A DNA stretch of 64,000 bases from Naegleria gruberi (Eukaryota): the NCBI GenBank assembly GCA_000004985.1, contig GG738876.1; one strand, given 5' to 3'. Position numbers and translations under genes: made by a program. The stretch's first letter is position 1; every line of letters begins with the position of its first letter. Of this stretch, positions 21,399 to 32,017 are shown piece after piece. The notes beneath the pieces were generated by a model. The model saw only the letters and a list, made by a program, of their open reading frames with translations. It was not told the origin of the DNA and searched no databases.

Positions 21399-22694
21399 TT
21401 AGTTTCTTTTTAAATTATTGTTAAAATTCAAATAAGCTATATTCAAACTTACTAATTTTGGAAGTCTAACTTGTGCTGTTGATAAATTCCATCTTTCTTC
21501 CCTGTCGAAAATATCTACATTTTTAATTTCTTTTTGATTCTCTTGTTGAATTTTTTCCTTCAAATCTAAATAAATATCCAAATCCTTTGATGGAAGTATT
21601 TCTACAGTATTTACCTTTTGAGCCATCTCTGTATCAATTATATTCCAAGAATCTGGATCTGAATCCTTATCCTGTAAAGTGCTGAGTTTTATCTTTTTTC
21701 TTGGCTTTGATGTTGATGGCACAGTTGGTGTTTGTTCAGATTCAGAATCAGACATTGGTAATACCATAGAGCTGGCATCTTGCATTTTGGAGAGAGCATC
21801 CAATTTTTCCTCGTCATAGATAGCATTTATAGATGTTGTAGGATTATATAAATTAGAAATGATCATTTGATCAATTTGATTATACTTGTAGAGATCCACA
21901 ATATTTGTATTTTCATCATTTTGCAAATGCATATTTTCTAATAAATCCCTATCTTTTTCCAATGTGTGAAATTCACTCATTTGGAAATATGGCAATAAAG
22001 AAATGTCATCATCGTACAATACATGATTTGTTACAAATGAATCGTATAAAATTGATCTCAATCTCAAAGATAATTCCATAATTAAATTATGTGACACTTC
22101 TCCAGAGGCTTGATTATTGTTCCAGAAATTACCAAATGTATCCTTATTCACAGTAACTTGTTGATACAATTTATACAATTTATCATTGCTAGCTTGTTGA
22201 AAAATGTTGGAAATCTTCTTTTTAGGAGATCGATCCAATTCTTGAACAAGTGAAAACCACTGATCAGATGATGATGTTTGTAGCATACAAGGAGAACAAC
22301 AAGAAGACGAAGTAGGTGAATAATCAGATGGTGATACAACAGCTCTCCTTCCTCCAACAACAATACCTCCCGACGATGATAACAGTGGTGTATTATTATT
22401 ACCAGGCTTTCTCTTTCTTCGTGTATTTGGTGTTTTCAATTGTGTATTATTATTATTACTAATGCTGCTACTACCACAACTCGTTGAAGATGGTGGAGTA
22501 TTATTTCCACCTCCTTGTTGTTGTTGCAATGTTGTAGTACCATGAATACCACTTGTATTGACCGTCAGTTGATGCTGTTGCTGTTGTTGCTGAAGTAAAG
22601 AAGAAGCTTCGCCAACTTCTTTGCCCGTTATTATTGTTGGTGTTGCTTCATGTAAATGGTTGGGCATTTTTTGGAAATGATAGGTTGGCGCCAA
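21399..22694 (-). CDS. Hypothetical Q/N/S-rich nuclear-type protein
   Basis: 431-aa ORF with poly-Q, poly-N and Ser tracts; no domain recognised. Confidence 0.45.
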   Translation of the reverse strand: MAPTYHFQKMPNHLHEATPTIITGKEVGEASSLLQQQQQQHQLTVNTSGIHGTTTLQQQQGGGNNTPPSSTSCGSSSISNNNNTQLKTPNTRRKRKPGNNNTPLLSSSGGIVVGGRRAVVSPSDYSPTSSSCCSPCMLQTSSSDQWFSLVQELDRSPKKKISNIFQQASNDKLYKLYQQVTVNKDTFGNFWNNNQASGEVSHNLIMELSLRLRSILYDSFVTNHVLYDDDISLLPYFQMSEFHTLEKDRDLLENMHLQNDENTNIVDLYKYNQIDQMIISNLYNPTTSINAIYDEEKLDALSKMQDASSMVLPMSDSESEQTPTVPSTSKPRKKIKLSTLQDKDSDPDSWNIIDTEMAQKVNTVEILPSKDLDIYLDLKEKIQQENQKEIKNVDIFDREERWNLSTAQVRLPKLVSLNIAYLNFNNNLKRN

Positions 22695-24499: not shown

Positions 24500-24559
24500 A
24501 AAGAAATTGTAAAGTAAACGAATTTAACACGAACTTCGAGATCAAAAAACAAGAAAAAA

Positions 24560-25478
24560 ATGGGTGTAGACGTTACCGTGCTAATGGTCAATCTGGACCA
24601 ATTTGAAGATTTGGGTATGCATCTACTTTTTTACTTTATTATTTAATACTTTGTAAATAGCTGAGAAACTTGTCTCCGATGAAACAGAAGATCCATCTTC
24701 CTACAAACAAGATTTGTTAGAATTAGATAGCAGATTTTATATTAACAGTTTCCGCTTGAGAGCTGCCGGTGAATTAGCAAAATTTGCAGCTAAATTCGGA
24801 TTATCAGAAACTTGGTCTGATTCAACCCAATTAGATGAATTGTTGTGTAGTATTGGCACATTTAGACAAGACAGTACAATCATACTAACTCAGGAAAACT
24901 CTGATGAAGTGGAGGAATATGTTGAATTTCCTAACTTGATTGAGTTGGGAGAAGCTTACCAATCAGTTGCAGAGTACACTTTCACATTCATTCATCCACT
25001 TTTGATTGCAGAATTGAGTGCTCATTTCGAACATCAAAATAGCATTCCTATTGAATTATTGGAAAAAGTATTCGAAAATGAATATGAAGAATATGTTCGT
25101 CCAAAGAAATTGAGAAAACCAAATTCCAATGAAGAAAGCATCGATGGAATAAGAGAATGGTTAAGCCATAATGATGAATATGTATTCTTCACCAATATCC
25201 TATTGTATTACAATACACCTGAACGTGTCTTTTCTCTTTTGGAAAAACCAAAAATTGGAAAGGAAAAAGTGAAAAATATTTTACAACCACTGCTGATGAA
25301 ATTTGAAGATATTGCAGATGAATATTGGATTTTAATTATGGAATTTATTGAAGATCCATTTTCATTGACAAGATTTGGAATGGCTCATTCGAAATTCTAC
25401 AATATTCTTTGTAAGAATCGAAAAGAATGGTATGCAGAATTCAAAAGAAATATTGGATTATTCTCATACCTGAGCTAA
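24560..25478 (+). CDS. Hypothetical protein, 2 exons
   Basis: ATG at 24560; exon 1 24560..24614 (MGVDVTVLMVNLDQFEDLG). 46-nt intron 24615..24660 (GTATGC...TAAATAG) restores the frame of ORF 24714..25478. No domain recognised. Confidence 0.55.
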
Positions 25479-25603
25479 TTACCCTTCAAATGTTCTTCAC
25501 ATTGTACGAATTAGTTCTTGTTTTGCTAGATCATTAAATTTATTAAAGCATTCTCTAATAATTTGTAAGAAAGTATTCAATTAATTTAAAAAGAGTTCCA
25601 GCA

Positions 25604-26338
25604 ATGTATGTTGCTAATCAAGCTGTATTGGCATTGTATTCATCTGGAAAGACTAATGGAATGGTTATGGATTCAAGAGATGGAATTACACATGCTGTTC
25701 CAATTAATGATGGATTTGCCGTTTCAGATGCAATTGTGAGTTTAGAATTGGCAGGCAGTGACATTACTGATTGTTTAATGGAAATGTTGAAGGGGAAAGG
25801 GTTTCCTCAACTCCAATCCTTAACAAACGAAAGAAGAATCTTTAGAGATATTAAGGAGAAGCACTGTTATATTTCTCTTGATTTCAATACTGAAATGGTA
25901 AATGAAACATCTTTATCTATTCAAAGAGAATATGAACTACCAGATGGGTCTATCATTCCAATTGATAAAGAACGATTCAAATGCACAGAAGTTCTTTTCC
26001 AACCAAATTTGATGGAATTAGAATGTGCCTCCATTCATGAAACTATTCTCAGCTCAATTGGTAAATGTAATATTGAAATGAGAAAGAATTTGTTCAGTAA
26101 CATTCATATATCAGGTGGAAATACAATGTTTGAGGGAATTTCTGAACTATTGACCAAGGAACTGACTGCACTAGCTCCATCTGCAATGAATGTTAAGATT
26201 ATTGCTCCTCCTAAGAGGAAATATTCTGTTTGGATTGGTGGTTCGATTCTTGCGAGTTTTATTGAACATGATATGTGGCTTTCGAAAGAGAATTATGAAG
26301 AATTTGGATATGAAGTTGTTCATAGAAAGTGTTATTGA
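25604..26338 (+). CDS. N-terminally truncated actin-like protein (aligns to actin residues about 132-375 only)
   Basis: MYVANQAVLALYSSGKTNGMVMDSRDGITHAVPI...LAGSDITDCLM...IKEKHCYISLDF...YELPDGSIIPI..ERFKCTEVLFQP...ISGGNTMFEGI...KYSVWIGGSILAS..HRKCY is colinear with the actin C-terminal two-thirds. Only about 125 nt separate it from the upstream gene, so subdomain-1 and the phosphate-1 loop are not encoded. Confidence 0.75.
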   Translation: MYVANQAVLALYSSGKTNGMVMDSRDGITHAVPINDGFAVSDAIVSLELAGSDITDCLMEMLKGKGFPQLQSLTNERRIFRDIKEKHCYISLDFNTEMVNETSLSIQREYELPDGSIIPIDKERFKCTEVLFQPNLMELECASIHETILSSIGKCNIEMRKNLFSNIHISGGNTMFEGISELLTKELTALAPSAMNVKIIAPPKRKYSVWIGGSILASFIEHDMWLSKENYEEFGYEVVHRKCY

Positions 26339-26675
26339 GTTCAGTATTCTTCTTGCTGGAATACTATTGATCACCATTCAGAGATGTCAGATGCGAAGAA
26401 CGCAGAAGTGTTTGTTGTTTGTAAAAATTATTACGGAAATATTTACTGAAATTTGTTTTAGTTATTCGAAAGAAATGCATTTACGAATCCACAAAGATGC
26501 ATCATCATATCTTAAAGGATAATAATGCCGATCCAGTAGGGCGGCAATCCTCTTATTTCTAACAATTTGTACGAAACCAAGTTGAAATTGTAGAATCTTG
26601 TTTGTAAATGGAAAGAGATGGTATTTTACAAATTAATTTAAACTGTCCCTAGTACGTACATTTTGTTTGAAATGA

Positions 26676-28520
26676 TTGAAAGAAAGTAAGAGTAAAGGGT
26701 TTATTAATCATTCAAAAAGAATGTCAACAATACTTTCGAATAGTTTATTCATCATTACTTTACTCTTGCTTGTTGTTTCGAATAGTTACCAATCAACCAA
26801 CAACAGCAACTTGACAACCGTTACTTCATTCTACTACCCACAATACGAATGTCTCAAACACACTCCAGTCAACCAATTCTACTATCCTTTCATGTTCACT
26901 CTCGATACTCCCTTCTATGATTATTGTAAATTGCCAACGATTGGAAATGCACCACAAGATTTCTATAAGGACTCTCAATTGATCAGTTCATTATTGGATG
27001 GTTCATTCTCTTGTGTTGATTTCCTGTGTTCCAATGACAAGGAATGGAACCTTTCGAATAAGACTCAGCTCACTACACTTGGAGTCATGTGGAATTATTG
27101 TTTTTATTGTAATACTGAGGGAAGAAATTCATCATCAATTAATTCGACAAGTGAAATATTTAGAGAAAAACTAATGTTGGGTCAATGTGATGCATTTTCA
27201 ATTGCAAATTCATCGTTGAATTTCTTGGAGAATTTCAATCGAGTTTCGAATAGGCATTGTAATGGAGATAGCTATGTGGAGAGACGTCATTTACCATTCC
27301 TTGAATATTACTTTTTCCAAACAGATTACTTTATCAATTCGTTTGCTAGATATAGAAAGAATAATTTCAATGAAGTTTATTCTGATGCAAAGACTTACAT
27401 TTCCAAAGTTAAACTTCAATCCATTCTCACCTTTTATTTTAAAGATTTATTCGAAAGGTCAACACTTGATTCAGCCCCTCTCAACATTCCAGTTTCATGT
27501 TGGTGTGATTATGGATCTAGCTCCAAAACCATTGGTTTTCAATGCTACGATTATTATCAGGGATGGCAATTATTATGTACCTATAGAATATGTGTTGTGA
27601 TATTTACTCTATTATATGGCAGTTGTTCATTGTTTTATTCATTGGTTTTGGTGGTACCGAGAATTGTGGAGAGAATTTCCTCATTCAAACAGAGAAATGA
27701 TATTAGATTAATGGAAACTAATTGTAAGAAACCTCTCTATTTCATTAGACATTTTTTAGATATTGTAACACAACCTCCAATTTTCTTTACATTATCTGCA
27801 TTCTTTGGAATGTTGGAAAACTGTTTCAGATTTCTATTTAATTTTAGTGTTTTTAATGGATTTTTCAATTCTTTCTATTCGGGAATTTTTAGATCGATTT
27901 CAATTGGTTTGGCATGTTGTGGATATTCTGCATTGGTTATTTCATGGGCTCATGTGATTGATTTGGCAAAGAGAAAGACATCCTCTGCTCCCTTTTCAAG
28001 TCAATTGTCAAAATTGAATGTTGTAATCTTGACAATTTGTTACATTGGCATGTTAATATCAGGAATTGTGAGTGCAATCATTTTGATTGTTGTGAAGAAC
28101 TCATCTACTGGTTATATCTTCTTGACAGTTGCTGTACTGATCTATCTCTTTACATTTGTAGTTGGCTTTGCATTTTATGGAATCAAGATTTTACTTTCCC
28201 TCAGAAAAACCTCAGATACTAGCTCAATTATTGAGTATCGTTTCACCAAATTCATTCTATTAGAAACGGTCTTCTTCCTTATTGGTTGGATTGTTTCACT
28301 CTTCATGTTAGTTTCGTACGTGTTTGGTTTCGATTCGATGGGACTTTTCTGGGGACTCAATAGAAATATTTTCATGGATACCATGTTGAATGCAGTTTCC
28401 ATTCTCTCATGTTACATTACTTTCAATAGGAATGCATTCGAAATGGTGTATGGAAAGAAGTTTCTTTCATTGTGTTCATGTGAAAAGAATAATGATACTA
28501 CAAGTGATAATAAACAATAA
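26676..28520 (+). CDS. 7-transmembrane receptor-like protein with signal peptide and Cys-rich N-terminal ectodomain
   Basis: Signal peptide. An ectodomain of about 300 aa carries about 13 Cys and many N-glycosylation sequons. Seven hydrophobic helices follow (VVIFTLLYGSCSLFYSLVLVV ... ISIGLACCGYSALVISWAHVI ... IFMDTMLNAVSILSCYITF), then a short tail. Confidence 0.6.
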   Translation: MKESKSKGFINHSKRMSTILSNSLFIITLLLLVVSNSYQSTNNSNLTTVTSFYYPQYECLKHTPVNQFYYPFMFTLDTPFYDYCKLPTIGNAPQDFYKDSQLISSLLDGSFSCVDFLCSNDKEWNLSNKTQLTTLGVMWNYCFYCNTEGRNSSSINSTSEIFREKLMLGQCDAFSIANSSLNFLENFNRVSNRHCNGDSYVERRHLPFLEYYFFQTDYFINSFARYRKNNFNEVYSDAKTYISKVKLQSILTFYFKDLFERSTLDSAPLNIPVSCWCDYGSSSKTIGFQCYDYYQGWQLLCTYRICVVIFTLLYGSCSLFYSLVLVVPRIVERISSFKQRNDIRLMETNCKKPLYFIRHFLDIVTQPPIFFTLSAFFGMLENCFRFLFNFSVFNGFFNSFYSGIFRSISIGLACCGYSALVISWAHVIDLAKRKTSSAPFSSQLSKLNVVILTICYIGMLISGIVSAIILIVVKNSSTGYIFLTVAVLIYLFTFVVGFAFYGIKILLSLRKTSDTSSIIEYRFTKFILLETVFFLIGWIVSLFMLVSYVFGFDSMGLFWGLNRNIFMDTMLNAVSILSCYITFNRNAFEMVYGKKFLSLCSCEKNNDTTSDNKQ

Positions 28521-29047
28521 TGTGATTGGTAAAGGATTGAATATTCTTGATCTCTGTTTCAATTTTCGTTCAAACTTGCACCTCATCTCCCATTTTCCTT
28601 GAAATTCAATTGTTCGGAGATGAGTGGGAGTTATTAATTGAAAATTCCGCAGTAGTAAGCACAATCTGTTCACAAGTCCATTACTTCTCCTCATGAAATC
28701 ATCAATTAATATTGAAAATTATTTGGATGTAGATATTGCAATTTCCTTCGTGTTCTCCATCTTTATTTCTCTGTGCATTATCAAAAACTACACACAGGTG
28801 CGCCCAATGATTGATCAATATTGAACCTTTTTTCATTCCTCCCACACGTGTGTGCTCCCTATCAATCATTAAGAGCATCAACATGATCCATTCAACAAAT
28901 GCAAGAGAGGCTCTCTTGAAAATTTTGGCGCGCAACTAAAATCTATGTGATTGTGTATTTGAGACTGATGGGAAGATGCTTTGAAAAAATATCTTTTTAA
29001 AATAATTTTAAATAAATTATTGTTGAAGAAAATTGATTCTAGAAAAA

Positions 29048-32017
29048 ATGTCTTCGTACGGAACGCACGGCGATGGTGGAGATGGGTTGGAATCGAGTAA
29101 ACAACTCAATGTGCTCCAAAAGATTGCTAGAAATAGAGTGGTGAATATTGTTGGTGCGATAATATTATCAATTATTTTATTATTGAGTATTGGATGTTGT
29201 GTTGTTGTTGGTGTGCTTCATTCACATTTGCTTTTCCAATGTGGATTTGCTGAATTTATATTTATGTTACTTCTTGAAGGCGCTACATTCTTCTTCTGTA
29301 TTTATCACTTGTACAATATTTACAAGTTTTTCAAGACTAGAGCACGACACTCTGGTAAGAAGGGAATTTCCGCTATTGTTGCTGCTTTATGTTCATCAGA
29401 AGTAAATCAATACAATGCATATTCTGATTCCAGACAAGGAAATGAAGAAGATGATTTTGATGATGAAGAAGATGATGAAGATGACGAAGAAGAGGAGGAA
29501 GAAGAAAGCAAATTTTCCAAGTTTGTTGTCGGCTTTTTGAAGATTGCTGCCAATGCTATTGCTGTTTTATGTTTCATCATTTTGGTACTTTTCACAGTTG
29601 TTGTCGTTCCATTGCAACAACAAACCTACCCAACTTATAACGGTACTCTTAAACTTCCAAAGTTTACACCAAAGGGATCTTCTGCTCCTACAATTTCACG
29701 TGAAAGTAATGGTGTTGTTCACATCAAGGCTTCACACGATTATGATTTATATTTCGCACAAGGTGTAGCTGTTGCTCAAGATCGTTTGTGGCAATTGGAA
29801 TTTAATCGTAGATTGTCAAATGGTATTTTGGCTGAAGTTGCTGGTGCTGATGCTGTCAATGTTGACAGTTGGTTCAGAACTCTCGGATTTGCTCGTTCTG
29901 CTGCCAACATTTTACCAACCATTGATGCTGAAACTCTTTCATTCATTCAAGCATATTGTGATGGTATTAACTCTTATATTAATAGTAATCCACCACTTCA
30001 ACCTGAATTTGTTCTCCTCAACACTAAACCAGTTGAATGGACTCCAAGTGATGTTATTGCTTATATGAAGTTTGTTTCATTCTCTCTTTCTGATAATATG
30101 GAAAAGGAAGTTTGGAGATTCAAGATGATGCAAAGAAATATCACAAAGGACAGAGTTAACGAATTGGTTCCTTTCTACCCAACTGATATGCCAACTATTT
30201 TGAGTTTGGAAGAAATGAATTTGCAAAACGTTCCAGTTGAAGAAAGAGAAAAGATTGAAAAGGCTCAACAAGATGATTCTGCTGCTTTTATTCCAAAGGC
30301 TATTCACAATTTGACCATGTCTGTCATGGAAGAAATGTTCGCTTCATTGGAAGAATCTGGTGAATGGGGTAAACAAGCTGTCAGATCAGTTTTGAAGGGT
30401 ATGGTTGCTCCAGATATCACTGGTAACAAGGCCTCAAACAATTGGGTTCTCGGAACCAAGATTACAGCAAACAATGGATCATTGTTGGCTAACGATCCTC
30501 ATTTGGATTTGACTGCTCCAGGTATTTGGTATTTGGCTCATTTGGAAGGTCCAACTCACAATGTTATTGGTTCTACTTTTGTTGGTCTTCCAGGTATTGT
30601 TATTGGTAAGAATGATTTCATTTCATGGGGTGTTACTACTGGTCTTGTTGATGCTCAAGATTTGTACGTCATGTCCGAAGTTGAAGAAGGTAAAACTTAC
30701 AACTACAATGGTAAAGTTCTCCAATATGAAACTCGTACCGAAACTATTAATGTTAAGGGAGCTGCTGCCAAGACTATTACTGTTAAGGAATCTGTCTACG
30801 GTCCAGTTATTAATGACCACTACCAAGTTGATGGTAACGTTTTGTGTTTGAAGTCTTTGACTACCTACACTAATGATACCACACTCCAAGCTTTCCTCAA
30901 GTTGAACAGAGAAGCTAAGGATTGGAACTCATTTGTTGATGTTGTCTCCTTGTTCGTTTCCCCATCCCAAAACTTTGTCTTTGCTGACAAGAGTGGTAAC
31001 ATTGGTTACTATTTGGCTGGTTTGGTTCCAATTAGAAAGGAAGGTCACAATGGTAGATTCCCAGTTATTGGTGATGGTAGCTATGATTGGCAAGGATTTA
31101 TTCCAGCTGCTGAAAAGCCAAGCGTTTACAATCCAAAGAAGGATTACATTGCTTCTGCAAACAACAGAGTTACTCCTGTTGGTTACAAGTACAGTATTAC
31201 CCAAGATTGGTACTCTTTCTATAGAGCTAGCAGAATTGTCTCATTGATTGAAACTGCTATTGAAAAGGGAACTCCACTCAATTTTGAATACATGAAGAAG
31301 ATGCAACACGACGTTCACTCACCAGTCTTTGATCAATTCAAGTTTGTTTTTGAAGCTATTCCAAAGTTCAGAAATCTCACTGAAAATAAGGAAAAGTTGA
31401 GAGAAAAGTTGATTAATTGGGACGGTGATGAAATTTTGTACTCTCAATCTGCTTCCATCTTTGAAATGTGGTACAAGATTATGGGTAACCTCACCAAGGT
31501 TGAAACTGTCAATAGATGGTCTTTCGGTCCATATCTTTACAATGCCTTGAAGAATGGTGATAGTGCTTGTGAAAATTATCACAACACTACTTGTATGTTG
31601 TTCGCTATTGACAGCTTTGAAAATGCCATTGATGCTCTTGAAGCCACTTACGGTTCTATTCCATTGTGGGGTTCTGATATTCACGAATCTGAATTCCCTA
31701 ACCCGGTAATGGATAATACTGTTCTCAAATGTTTGGCTGGAGCTACTCGTACTACTGTTGGTGGTTCTTCAACCATTAATGTTGGTGAAACTCAATATCC
31801 TGCCCTCAATTCAAGATGGGGTGTTTCTTATAGACAAGTTGTTGATTGGCGAGGCAATCAAGCTTCATTCATCATTCCACTCGGTCAATCTGGTAACTTC
31901 TTATCTCCTCTTTACACCAACTTGTTAGAAATGTGGTCTGACCCAACTGGTCAATACTTGGACATGAAATCTGCTGGTTACACTGCAACCAATACCCTTT
32001 CTCTTTCCTCTCAATAA
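29048..32017 (+). CDS. Membrane-anchored penicillin-amidase-family Ntn hydrolase (peptidase S45; AHL-acylase/aculeacin-acylase-like)
   Basis: N-terminal TM helices, poly-acidic linker EEDDFDDEEDDEDDEEEEEEE, further TM helix, then the full amidase domain. The beta-subunit N-terminal nucleophile context is GNKASNNWVLGTKITANNGSLLANDPHLDLTAPGIWYLAHL (compare E. coli PGA SNMWVIG...VNGPQFGW). ATG at 29048. Confidence 0.8.
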   Translation: MSSYGTHGDGGDGLESSKQLNVLQKIARNRVVNIVGAIILSIILLLSIGCCVVVGVLHSHLLFQCGFAEFIFMLLLEGATFFFCIYHLYNIYKFFKTRARHSGKKGISAIVAALCSSEVNQYNAYSDSRQGNEEDDFDDEEDDEDDEEEEEEESKFSKFVVGFLKIAANAIAVLCFIILVLFTVVVVPLQQQTYPTYNGTLKLPKFTPKGSSAPTISRESNGVVHIKASHDYDLYFAQGVAVAQDRLWQLEFNRRLSNGILAEVAGADAVNVDSWFRTLGFARSAANILPTIDAETLSFIQAYCDGINSYINSNPPLQPEFVLLNTKPVEWTPSDVIAYMKFVSFSLSDNMEKEVWRFKMMQRNITKDRVNELVPFYPTDMPTILSLEEMNLQNVPVEEREKIEKAQQDDSAAFIPKAIHNLTMSVMEEMFASLEESGEWGKQAVRSVLKGMVAPDITGNKASNNWVLGTKITANNGSLLANDPHLDLTAPGIWYLAHLEGPTHNVIGSTFVGLPGIVIGKNDFISWGVTTGLVDAQDLYVMSEVEEGKTYNYNGKVLQYETRTETINVKGAAAKTITVKESVYGPVINDHYQVDGNVLCLKSLTTYTNDTTLQAFLKLNREAKDWNSFVDVVSLFVSPSQNFVFADKSGNIGYYLAGLVPIRKEGHNGRFPVIGDGSYDWQGFIPAAEKPSVYNPKKDYIASANNRVTPVGYKYSITQDWYSFYRASRIVSLIETAIEKGTPLNFEYMKKMQHDVHSPVFDQFKFVFEAIPKFRNLTENKEKLREKLINWDGDEILYSQSASIFEMWYKIMGNLTKVETVNRWSFGPYLYNALKNGDSACENYHNTTCMLFAIDSFENAIDALEATYGSIPLWGSDIHESEFPNPVMDNTVLKCLAGATRTTVGGSSTINVGETQYPALNSRWGVSYRQVVDWRGNQASFIIPLGQSGNFLSPLYTNLLEMWSDPTGQYLDMKSAGYTATNTLSLSSQ

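What the first reader, a model, noticed from the sequence alone, without database searches (positions are those of the whole stretch)
25479..26338. Intact ORF encoding only the C-terminal two-thirds of actin
The ORF begins at the position equivalent to actin Met132 (MYVANQAVLALYSSG...) and runs, well conserved and without stops, to the actin C-terminus (...HRKCY). There is no room upstream for the N-terminal 130 residues (phosphate-1 loop, DNase-I loop), since the preceding gene ends about 125 nt away. A decaying pseudogene would be expected to accumulate stops; this one has none. It could be a recent truncated duplicate, a gene with a distant unrecognised 5' exon, or a functional actin-fragment.
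Basis: seen in the sequence. Interest (0 to 1): 0.65.

Follow-up and report, generated by a model that had tools for sequence, protein, structure and literature searches.

The report
Truncated divergent actin gene, Naegleria
This is a real, already annotated Naegleria gruberi gene model for a very divergent actin copy that has lost its first third; it evolved as a protein-coding gene for most of its history, but it is most likely a truncated leftover of a large actin family, not a new kind of protein.

Summary
ORF 25604-26338 (+, 244 codons) matches actin residues 132-375 (E 4e-92). Nothing in the 64-kb window encodes actin residues 1 to about 115. The window is Naegleria gruberi, and the ORF is the annotated model NAEGRDRAFT_69091.

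The ORF is only 56-59% identical to every actin, yet it carries Naegleria-type residues, so it is a fast-evolving local paralogue. It is not a long-decayed pseudogene:
- The fragment branch has omega of about 0.2.
- All three indels are in frame.
- Neutral decay to this divergence leaves no stop in only 0.1-0.2% of simulations.
- Substitutions avoid sites that are conserved across actin-like proteins (p = 7e-9).

The ORF sits in a 4.5-kb interval that is absent from the syntenic Prp19 to penicillin-amidase locus of N. lovaniensis and of a metagenomic Naegleria. I found no orthologue anywhere.

Homology to actin runs 10 nt past the ATG and stops right after an AG. A 90-nt GT...AG segment separates it from a weak in-frame match to actin 117-127, which follows an ATG in good start context. 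The coding region may therefore extend about 29 codons upstream. Segments that normally pack on the missing N-terminal half show no extra relaxation, while the phosphate-2 loop carries G156R.

Best reading: a divergent actin paralogue truncated by rearrangement, probably fairly recently. A functional fragment is not excluded. Transcript data are needed.

The parts
25604..26338 (+). Intact 244-codon ORF (stop included), identical to NAEGRDRAFT_69091. It corresponds to actin residues 132-375: the end of subdomain 1, all of subdomains 3 and 4, and the C-terminal helices of subdomain 1.
   Evidence: It is 56-59% identical to all actins. There are three indels (+2, -1, -1 aa), all in frame.
25676..25678 (+). 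AGA codon (Arg25 of the ORF) at the position of actin Gly156 in the phosphate-2 loop, changing DSGDG to DSRDG.
   Evidence: Gly is kept here by 95% of diverse actin-like representatives. The other changes at sites that are at least 90% conserved are A220S, G273S and R312L.
25594..25603 (+). Ten bases upstream of the ATG, A GTT CCA GCA. Nine of the ten match canonical N. gruberi actin (TC)A GTT CCA GCT, which encodes Ser128-Val-Pro-Ala131. Homology stops abruptly on the 5' side, right after an AG at 25592-25593.
25504..25593 (+). A 90-nt segment, GTACGA...TTAAAAAG, containing four in-frame stops. It is either an intron in phase 2 or an insertion that interrupts the old reading frame.
   Evidence: The segment is unique in the window. 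Its splice sites are weaker than those of the three other inferred introns in the window, which read GTATGT/GTATCG/GTATGC...TAG. Canonical Naegleria actin genes have no intron.
25427..25503 (+). Candidate 5' exon in the same frame as the ORF, encoding MVCRIQKKYWIILIPELITLQMFFT. Its last 11 residues resemble actin 117-127 (EKMTQIMFETF). It overlaps the last 17 codons of the preceding ORF in another frame.
   Evidence: The collinear BLOSUM62 score is 17, p about 0.002 per junction. The five identical codons differ from canonical actin at third positions only. ATG 25427 has the A-rich context aaaagaATG typical of start codons in the window, and ATG 25604 does not. This part is unverified.
24560..25478 (+). 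Neighbouring ORF of 290 aa (exons 24560-24614 and 24661-25478, with a 46-nt intron). It is unrelated to actin and occupies the space where an actin N-terminus would lie.
   Evidence: It has no Pfam family and no relatives.
24501..29047 (.). Interval specific to the N. gruberi lineage, between Prp19 and penicillin amidase. It holds the orphan ORF, the actin fragment and a 7-TM-like ORF. N. lovaniensis and a metagenomic Naegleria carry a single LRR gene here instead.

Best explanation
The ORF is the surviving 3' two-thirds of a highly divergent member of the very large N. gruberi actin family.

Shown:
- It descends from a Naegleria-type actin.
- It changed about 42% of its residues while under purifying selection on an actin-like fold.
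- It lies in a lineage-specific interval.
- The part encoding actin residues 1 to about 115 (phosphate-1 loop, DNase-I loop, most of subdomain 1) is absent from the locus.

Inferred:
- A rearrangement or partial duplication removed the 5' part, placing the remnant next to an unrelated ORF.
- This happened late compared with the long divergence of the paralogue.
- The frame has therefore not yet decayed, bases just upstream of the ATG still match actin, and the segments that need the missing half are not specifically relaxed.

If a product is made, it starts at Met132 (244 aa) or at ATG 25427 through a 90-nt intron (273 aa). It would contain the inner domain plus orphaned C-terminal helices. 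With no phosphate-1 loop and with G156R in the phosphate-2 loop, it could not bind nucleotide or polymerise as actin does. I therefore read it as a gene remnant disabled by truncation, or at most weakly functional, and not as an actin in function.
For: - Identity and organism: the ORF is a 100% match to NAEGRDRAFT_69091.
- Actin homology covers residues 132-375 only, and no N-terminal match exists in the 64 kb.
- Naegleria-type residues are present (SIGKC, TMFEGI, CYI.LDF, FQPN), although identity to all actins is an even 56-59%.
- Coding history: dN 0.25-0.28 against dS 1.07-2.45 versus canonical N. gruberi actin, and fragment-branch omega about 0.21.
- Neutral-decay simulation gives 6.2 expected stops and P(no stop) of 0.001-0.002. 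All three indels are in frame.
- The canonical residue is kept at 90% of sites that at least 90% of diverse actin-like proteins keep, against 24-34% at variable sites, p = 7e-9.
- Lineage-specific locus: synteny ABC transporter - bromodomain - Prp19 - [interval] - penicillin amidase is kept with N. lovaniensis and a metagenomic Naegleria, which carry an LRR gene in the interval instead.
- No closer relative turned up among 5.8 billion proteins, 1.84 billion representatives or JGI metagenome contigs; the best matches were 59%, 58% and 52%.
- For late truncation: 9 of 10 bases upstream of the ATG still match actin, although synonymous sites are saturated. The subdomain-1-derived segments (132-144 and 338-375) keep 86% of highly conserved sites, against 74-80% in subdomains 3 and 4. 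ATG 25604 has an internal-Met-like context, not a start-like one.
- For loss of actin chemistry: G156R, R312L and T303N.
- Precedent: seven potential actin pseudogenes in Dictyostelium, most of them short partial actin domains (41-135 aa) (PMC2441452); N. gruberi is credited with 78 actins and Arps (PMC7594500).
Against: - No disabling mutation lies inside the 244 codons, and average selection on the branch is clearly purifying, so continued function cannot be excluded.
- 'Late truncation' is an inference from 10 bases and from the lack of regional relaxation. No full-length sister copy or orthologue was found to date the event.
- G156R could equally mean the protein has long worked without ATP.
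- The possible upstream exon with a good start context would fit a maintained transcription unit.
- Expression could not be examined. The rest of the N. gruberi genome could not be searched for a complementary N-terminal fragment.
Confidence: 0.45

Rival explanations
1. It is a long-maintained, functional N-terminally truncated actin-like protein of 244 aa, or about 273 aa with a short new 5' exon. It would be an 'inner-domain' protein that no longer binds ATP or polymerises. It would act through retained actin surfaces, for example by binding actin or actin-binding partners.
For: The ORF is intact, omega is about 0.2, indels are in frame and substitutions avoid conserved sites. G156R in the phosphate-2 loop is what one expects once the phosphate-1 loop is gone. 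A candidate exon begins at ATG 25427 in a start-like context and is joined by a GT...AG segment whose length is a multiple of three. The 125-nt spacing from the upstream ORF is normal for this dense genome.
Against: The C-terminal helices and the 132-144 segment are buried against the missing N-terminal sheet in actin, yet they are conserved at least as well as the rest. That is odd if the partner had been absent for long. The 9/10 identity of supposedly untranslated bases upstream of Met132 is also unexpected. No orthologue or family of such proteins was found. Other roughly 250-aa 'truncated actins' in the databases start at conserved Met123 or Met132 and look like gene-calling artefacts.
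Confidence: 0.25
2. It is a chimeric gene. The actin part is spliced to the preceding unrelated ORF, or to that ORF's first exon, giving a new N-terminal domain fused to actin residues of about 129-375.
For: In-frame GT-AG combinations exist. The donors are 25411 (ttt|GTAAGA, in the frame of the upstream ORF) and 24615 (the upstream ORF's own intron-1 donor). The acceptors are 25595|25596 and 25601|25602. Joining the exon-1 donor to 25596 would recreate ...FEDL-VPAMYVA. Both ORFs are on the same strand, 125 nt apart, and both lie inside the same lineage-specific interval.
Against: Combinations like these are expected by chance, given five acceptors and dozens of GT dinucleotides. The upstream ORF has its own stop. 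The donor-24615 option needs a 981-nt intron, whereas the inferred introns in the window are 46-88 nt. The annotated model is the 244-aa ORF alone.
Confidence: 0.1
3. It is a full-length actin-like gene whose N-terminal exons lie outside the window, on another scaffold, or are supplied by a separate gene. That would mean a mis-annotation, a mis-assembly or a split gene.
For: Homology ends exactly after an AG, as at a splice acceptor. The subdomain-1-derived parts stay under constraint.
Against: No match to actin 1-135 exists anywhere in 25 kb upstream or 37 kb downstream. An N-terminus as conserved as the C-terminal part (57%) would be obvious. Inferred Naegleria introns in this window are under 100 nt, and canonical Naegleria actin genes are intronless. 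Flanking synteny argues against a gross mis-join.
Confidence: 0.08
4. It is an old, neutrally decaying pseudogene fragment that kept an open frame by luck.
For: The gene is truncated, the ATP motif is damaged, it is unique to one lineage, and GC3 has drifted down to 0.25 from 0.40 in canonical actin.
Against: P(no stop) is 0.001-0.002 at this divergence. Synonymous divergence far exceeds non-synonymous divergence. All three indels are in frame. Site-class selectivity is strong, p = 7e-9.
Confidence: 0.03

Closest known systems
Partial-actin-domain pseudogenes of Dictyostelium discoideum (act34_ps, act35_ps, act36_ps and others; Joseph et al. 2008, PMC2441452)
   Same: Both are amoebae with greatly expanded actin families that carry gene remnants encoding only part of the actin domain.
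   Different: The Dictyostelium remnants are short, 41-135 aa of homology. This one keeps 244 uninterrupted codons, is far more divergent from the major actin, and shows a clear signature of past purifying selection.
[quoted passage not shown] 2010 as cited in PMC7594500)
   Same: Same genome and same family. Naegleria-type residues are present. One fairly divergent full-length paralogue, NAEGRDRAFT_44432, shares D-C at position 188, GGNTMF and TALAP with the fragment.
   Different: Those paralogues are full length and 82-99% identical to canonical actin over this region. This one is 56-59% identical and lacks about 115-131 N-terminal residues.
Database 'actins' of about 250 aa that start at conserved Met123 or Met132 (for example NAEGRDRAFT_54894 = P0050; representatives P0316, P0358, P0370, P0383)
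   Same: Same apparent architecture, with the model starting at a conserved internal Met.
   Different: Those cases are most simply truncations from contig ends, or from introns being ignored by gene callers. P0050 is 99% identical to a full-length paralogue and sits on a 4-kb contig. Here the upstream DNA is present and contains no actin N-terminus.
Filactin and other actin fusion proteins (Dictyostelium; PMC2441452)
   Same: An actin-derived module lies downstream of unrelated sequence. This is relevant only to the chimeric-gene rival.
   Different: Filactin keeps a complete conventional actin domain in one ORF. Here the actin domain is incomplete, and a stop separates the two ORFs.

Membership tests
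Actin family (Pfam PF00022; actin/Hsp70/sugar-kinase ATPase fold, with the five motifs of Bork, Sander and Valencia 1992, named from my own knowledge) | Significant sequence match to the actin profile | tested here: met
   PF00022 scores E 7.8e-69 and 232.7 bits against a cut-off of 27, but only over model positions 126-409 of 410. The best solved-structure match is to cytoplasmic actin residues 132-375, E 1.7e-88.
Actin family (Pfam PF00022) | A complete two-lobed fold: subdomains 1 and 2 with the phosphate-1 loop (residues 11-18) and the DNase-I loop | tested here: not met
   No match to actin residues 1-135 in the ORF, in the 125-nt spacer, or anywhere in the 64-kb window.
Actin family (Pfam PF00022) | Intact phosphate-2 loop (D154-S-G-D-G158) and adenosine motif (G301-G-T-T-M-F/Y306) | tested here: not met
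   The ORF has DSRDG (G156R; Gly is kept by 95% of diverse actin-like representatives) and GGNTMF (T303N). Q137, D154, D157, G158, H161, K213, E214, G301, G302 and K336 are retained.
Truncated (unitary or duplicated) pseudogene | Loss of an essential part of the parental coding region | tested here: met
   About 115-131 N-terminal codons are missing from the locus.
Truncated (unitary or duplicated) pseudogene | Frameshifts or premature stops, and dN/dS near 1 | tested here: not met
   No stop and no frameshift in 244 codons. Fragment-branch omega is about 0.21. Neutral decay is rejected at P of 0.001-0.002. A short recent neutral phase cannot be detected with these data.
Truncated (unitary or duplicated) pseudogene | No transcription or translation | not testable with these tools
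   No N. gruberi transcript data were reachable. No other sequence within 90% identity of the ORF is in the protein collection, and the exact-sequence look-up found no contig on record. However, N. gruberi's own Prp19 is also missing from that collection, so the absence carries no weight.
Processed (retroposed) 5'-truncated copy | Poly(A) remnant at the 3' end and target-site duplications | tested here: not met
   No A-run follows the stop codon, and no flanking direct repeats were found. Given the divergence, such marks could have decayed. Absence of introns says nothing here, because the canonical genes are intronless.
Virus-encoded actin-like proteins / integrated viral element | Relatives on viral contigs, and atypical base composition | tested here: not met
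   No pattern match for the ORF and no relative of its neighbour in IMG/VR contigs. GC in the interval is 0.31-0.33, against 0.33-0.39 in the flanks. Naegleria-type residues point to a cellular origin.

The most novel reading that the evidence does not exclude
N. gruberi maintains and expresses a 'half-actin'. This would be a protein made of the actin inner domain (subdomains 3 and 4) plus the C-terminal helices, possibly with a short new N-terminal exon. It would have given up ATP binding (no phosphate-1 loop, G156R) and would act as a non-polymerising binder or regulator of actin or actin-binding proteins. That would be an actin-fold lobe living on its own under selection.
Probability: 0.2. 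Interest if true: 0.6.

Novelty: new member of a known kind. Interest (0 to 1): 0.3.

Why it matters
If it is a truncation remnant, it matters mainly for curation. Counts such as '78 actins and Arps' in N. gruberi include models that cannot be actins in function. This one should be flagged as partial, and its 5' end re-examined for a possible 90-nt intron and upstream ATG. It also gives a worked example of a truncated paralogue whose intact frame reflects past, not necessarily present, selection. If it proved to be expressed and conserved, it would show that one lobe of the actin fold can persist as an independent protein, which would interest people who study actin-fold evolution. The present evidence does not favour that reading.

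Tried and rejected
- Looking for the missing N-terminus: TBLASTN of actin 1-135 against the window, DNA alignment of the canonical 5' coding region against 24500-25612, and BLASTP of the upstream ORF against actin. All gave only chance-level matches.
- Orthologue hunting: the 5.8-billion-protein search, the 1.84-billion representative search and a metagenome contig scan with peptides specific to the fragment. None found anything above 59%, 58% and 52% identity respectively. A scan for the upstream ORF found nothing either.
- Synteny anchored on Prp19 worked. It showed that the interval is specific to the N. gruberi lineage, not conserved.
- Exact-sequence look-up of the ORF in assemblies: not on record. 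The N. gruberi reference genome is evidently not in that index.
- Viral origin: rejected.
- Mobile-element insertion: no repeats or target-site duplications, and the 90-nt segment is unique.
- Fusion by splicing to the upstream ORF: in-frame GT-AG pairs exist but are expected by chance. My first hand-picked pair, donor 25430 joined to 25570 or 25594, creates a TGA.
- AlphaFold2 on the fragment gave mean pLDDT 39.6. A control with a canonical actin cut at the same Met gave 40.8. The low confidence therefore comes from the truncation and the shallow alignment and says nothing specific, so no fold search was run.
- Literature: no paper mentions NAEGRDRAFT_69091. The supplementary tables of the Naegleria actin paper are not held.

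Full report
What is there. The window is AT-rich eukaryotic DNA (34% GC). ORF 25604-26338 on the + strand has 244 codons. It translates to a protein identical to the annotated Naegleria gruberi model NAEGRDRAFT_69091, which UniRef names 'Actin'. It aligns to actin residues 130-376 with E 4.5e-92 and 56% identity. It matches Pfam Actin positions 126-409 of 410 and residues 132-375 of solved actins. The preceding same-strand ORF stops at 25478, 125 nt upstream of the ATG. A sensitive TBLASTN with actin residues 1-135 finds nothing better than E = 1.6 anywhere in the 64 kb. Only the stated start, 25479, is the end of the neighbouring ORF and not the start of this one.

What kind of actin copy it is. 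Over the shared region the ORF is 56-59% identical to every actin tested, whether from Naegleria, Willaertia or Dictyostelium. Those actins are 81-100% identical to one another. The ORF nonetheless carries residues typical of Naegleria actins (SIGKC, TMFEGI, CYI.LDF, FQPN). It is therefore a local paralogue on a very long branch, not a foreign gene. No closer relative exists among the best hits of the 5.8-billion-protein search or among 16,308 hits in the 1.84-billion representative library, where the maximum is 58%. Metagenome contigs scanned with fragment-specific peptides reach at most 52%. N. gruberi is credited with 78 actins and Arps (PMC7594500). No paper mentions this model.

Has it evolved as a coding sequence? 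Yes.
- Against canonical N. gruberi actin DNA (L001), dN is 0.25-0.28 and dS is 1.07-2.45.
- With N. lovaniensis actin as a third taxon, the fragment branch has dN 0.285, dS about 1.36 and omega about 0.21. The two canonical genes differ by dN 0.007-0.016 and dS 0.33-0.48.
- I simulated neutral decay of the canonical sequence down to 58% identity. It needs only about 188 substitutions, yields 6.2 stops on average and leaves no stop in 0.1-0.2% of runs.
- The three indels (+2, -1, -1 residues) are all in frame.
- The fragment keeps the canonical residue at 90% of sites that at least 90% of diverse actin-like proteins keep, but at only 24-34% of variable sites (Mann-Whitney p = 7e-9).
- Its GC content by codon position resembles that of neighbouring genes.

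An old, neutrally decaying pseudogene is thus excluded.

Genomic setting. The order ABC transporter - bromodomain gene (minus strand) - Prp19 - X - penicillin amidase is conserved between the window, N. lovaniensis (L002) and a metagenomic Naegleria (L003). In those two genomes X is a single 607-622-aa LRR gene. In N. gruberi X (24.5-29.0 kb) holds three ORFs: a 290-aa orphan, the actin fragment and a 7-TM-like ORF. The LRR gene is absent from the whole window. The interval shows no viral affinity, ordinary base composition and no flanking repeats. The fragment therefore sits in rearranged, lineage-specific DNA, which fits an origin by rearrangement or partial duplication.

The 5' boundary. 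In frame, the three codons before the ATG encode Val-Pro-Ala, as in actin 129-131. At the DNA level, 9 of the 10 bases upstream of the ATG match canonical actin. Similarity then stops immediately after an AG at 25592-25593. Ninety bases further upstream, in the same frame, lies ELITLQMFFT(L). It resembles actin 117-127, EKMTQIMFETF, with 5 of 11 residues identical, and the identical codons differ from the canonical ones at third positions only. The collinear score has p of about 0.002 per junction, or roughly 0.01-0.02 after allowing for the choices I made. The 90 bases between (25504-25593) begin GTACGA, end AAAAAG and contain four in-frame stops. That frame opens at ATG 25427, whose context (aaaagaATG) matches the A-rich context of start codons in the window. 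ATG 25604 (ccagcaATG) looks like an internal Met. A model of exon 25427-25503, a 90-nt intron and exon 25594-26338 (273 aa) is therefore plausible.

There are reasons for caution about that model. The splice sites are weaker than those of the three other inferred introns in the window, which read GTATGT, GTATCG or GTATGC at the 5' end and TAG at the 3' end. Canonical Naegleria actin genes have no introns. The putative exon also overlaps the last 17 codons of the upstream ORF in another frame. Even if the model is right, it restores only about 15 actin residues, so the N-terminal 115 remain absent. Other in-frame GT-AG pairs could join the ORF to the upstream ORF or to its first exon, but such pairs are expected by chance.

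Old or recent truncation? Two observations argue that the copy did not spend most of its long divergence without its N-terminal half. First, supposedly non-coding bases upstream of Met132 are still 90% identical to actin, although synonymous sites are saturated. Second, segments 132-144 and 338-375 pack against the missing N-terminal sheet in actin (structural fact from my own knowledge). They keep 86% of highly conserved sites, against 74-80% in subdomains 3 and 4, and are 62-77% identical overall against 53-60%. On the other side, Gly156 of the phosphate-2 loop is Arg, and R312L and T303N also occur. These changes suggest that nucleotide binding is no longer selected. A modest recent neutral phase would produce a few such hits without necessarily creating a stop. 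These data cannot separate 'recently disabled' from 'functional in a new way'.

Structure prediction did not help. AlphaFold2 gave mean pLDDT 39.6 for the fragment and 40.8 for a canonical actin cut at the same Met, using the same 56-57-sequence alignment.

Comparison with known things. The closest known category is the partial-actin-domain pseudogene of amoebae with expanded actin families. Dictyostelium has seven potential actin pseudogenes, most with only 41-135 aa of actin homology (PMC2441452). The present case differs in being long, intact and demonstrably shaped by purifying selection. Many roughly 250-aa 'actins' in sequence databases start at conserved Met123 or Met132. They include a second 244-aa N. 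gruberi model, NAEGRDRAFT_54894, with canonical sequence on a 4-kb contig. Those are most simply gene-model artefacts. Here the upstream DNA is present and lacks the N-terminus. The ORF belongs to the actin family by homology, but it fails the family's defining requirements for a complete fold and intact nucleotide-binding motifs.

Verdict. My probabilities are:
- 0.45: a divergent actin paralogue truncated by rearrangement, now a remnant or at most weakly functional.
- 0.25: a maintained, functional truncated actin-like protein.
- 0.10: a chimera with the upstream ORF.
- 0.08: a missing exon or an assembly problem.
- 0.03: an old neutral pseudogene.

This is a new member of a known kind. Interest is modest (0.3). 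Transcript data would settle the question quickly.

Noticed in passing
window 24560-24614 + 24661-25478 (+): A 290-aa ORF with a 46-nt GTATGC...AATAG intron and coding-like composition (GC1 > GC2 > GC3). It has no Pfam family and no detectable relative in the protein collection, metagenome contigs or viral contigs. It looks like a Naegleria orphan gene. It is absent from the protein collection, but so is N. gruberi's own Prp19, so I cannot say it is unannotated.
   Followed up: partly
window 26721-28520 (+) (ORF open from 26676): An ORF of about 599-614 aa with a Cys-rich N-terminal part followed by about seven hydrophobic helices, which looks like a receptor. It has no Pfam match. It lies in the same lineage-specific interval as the actin fragment.
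   Followed up: no
L002 11943-13811 (N. lovaniensis); L003 1986-3809 (metagenomic Naegleria); absent from the window: A conserved 607-622-aa LRR (FBXL15-like) gene lies between Prp19 and penicillin amidase in two other Naegleria genomes. In N. gruberi it is replaced by three unrelated ORFs, and TBLASTN finds no trace of it in the 64 kb.
   Followed up: partly
protein P0050 (NAEGRDRAFT_54894), not in the window: A second N. gruberi actin model of exactly 244 aa starts at the same conserved Met. Its sequence is canonical (99% identical to NAEGRDRAFT_48298) and it sits on a 4,096-bp contig. It is probably a truncated gene model or an assembly fragment.
   Followed up: partly
window: start codons of ORFs of at least 250 aa, e.g. 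4333, 29048, 35981, 43445, 26721: Likely true start codons in this window sit in an A-rich context (aaaaaATG, aaaagaATG). This could serve as a simple check on N. gruberi gene-model starts.
   Followed up: partly
window 29048-32017 (+): An intronless 989-aa penicillin-amidase-family gene is conserved in N. gruberi, N. lovaniensis and a metagenomic Naegleria. It is a mainly bacterial enzyme family (from my own knowledge) in a conserved eukaryotic locus.
   Followed up: no
window 21399-22694 (-): The N-terminal region of the bromodomain gene is rich in Gln, Asn and Ser low-complexity runs. It is much less conserved with N. lovaniensis than the rest of the gene.
   Followed up: no
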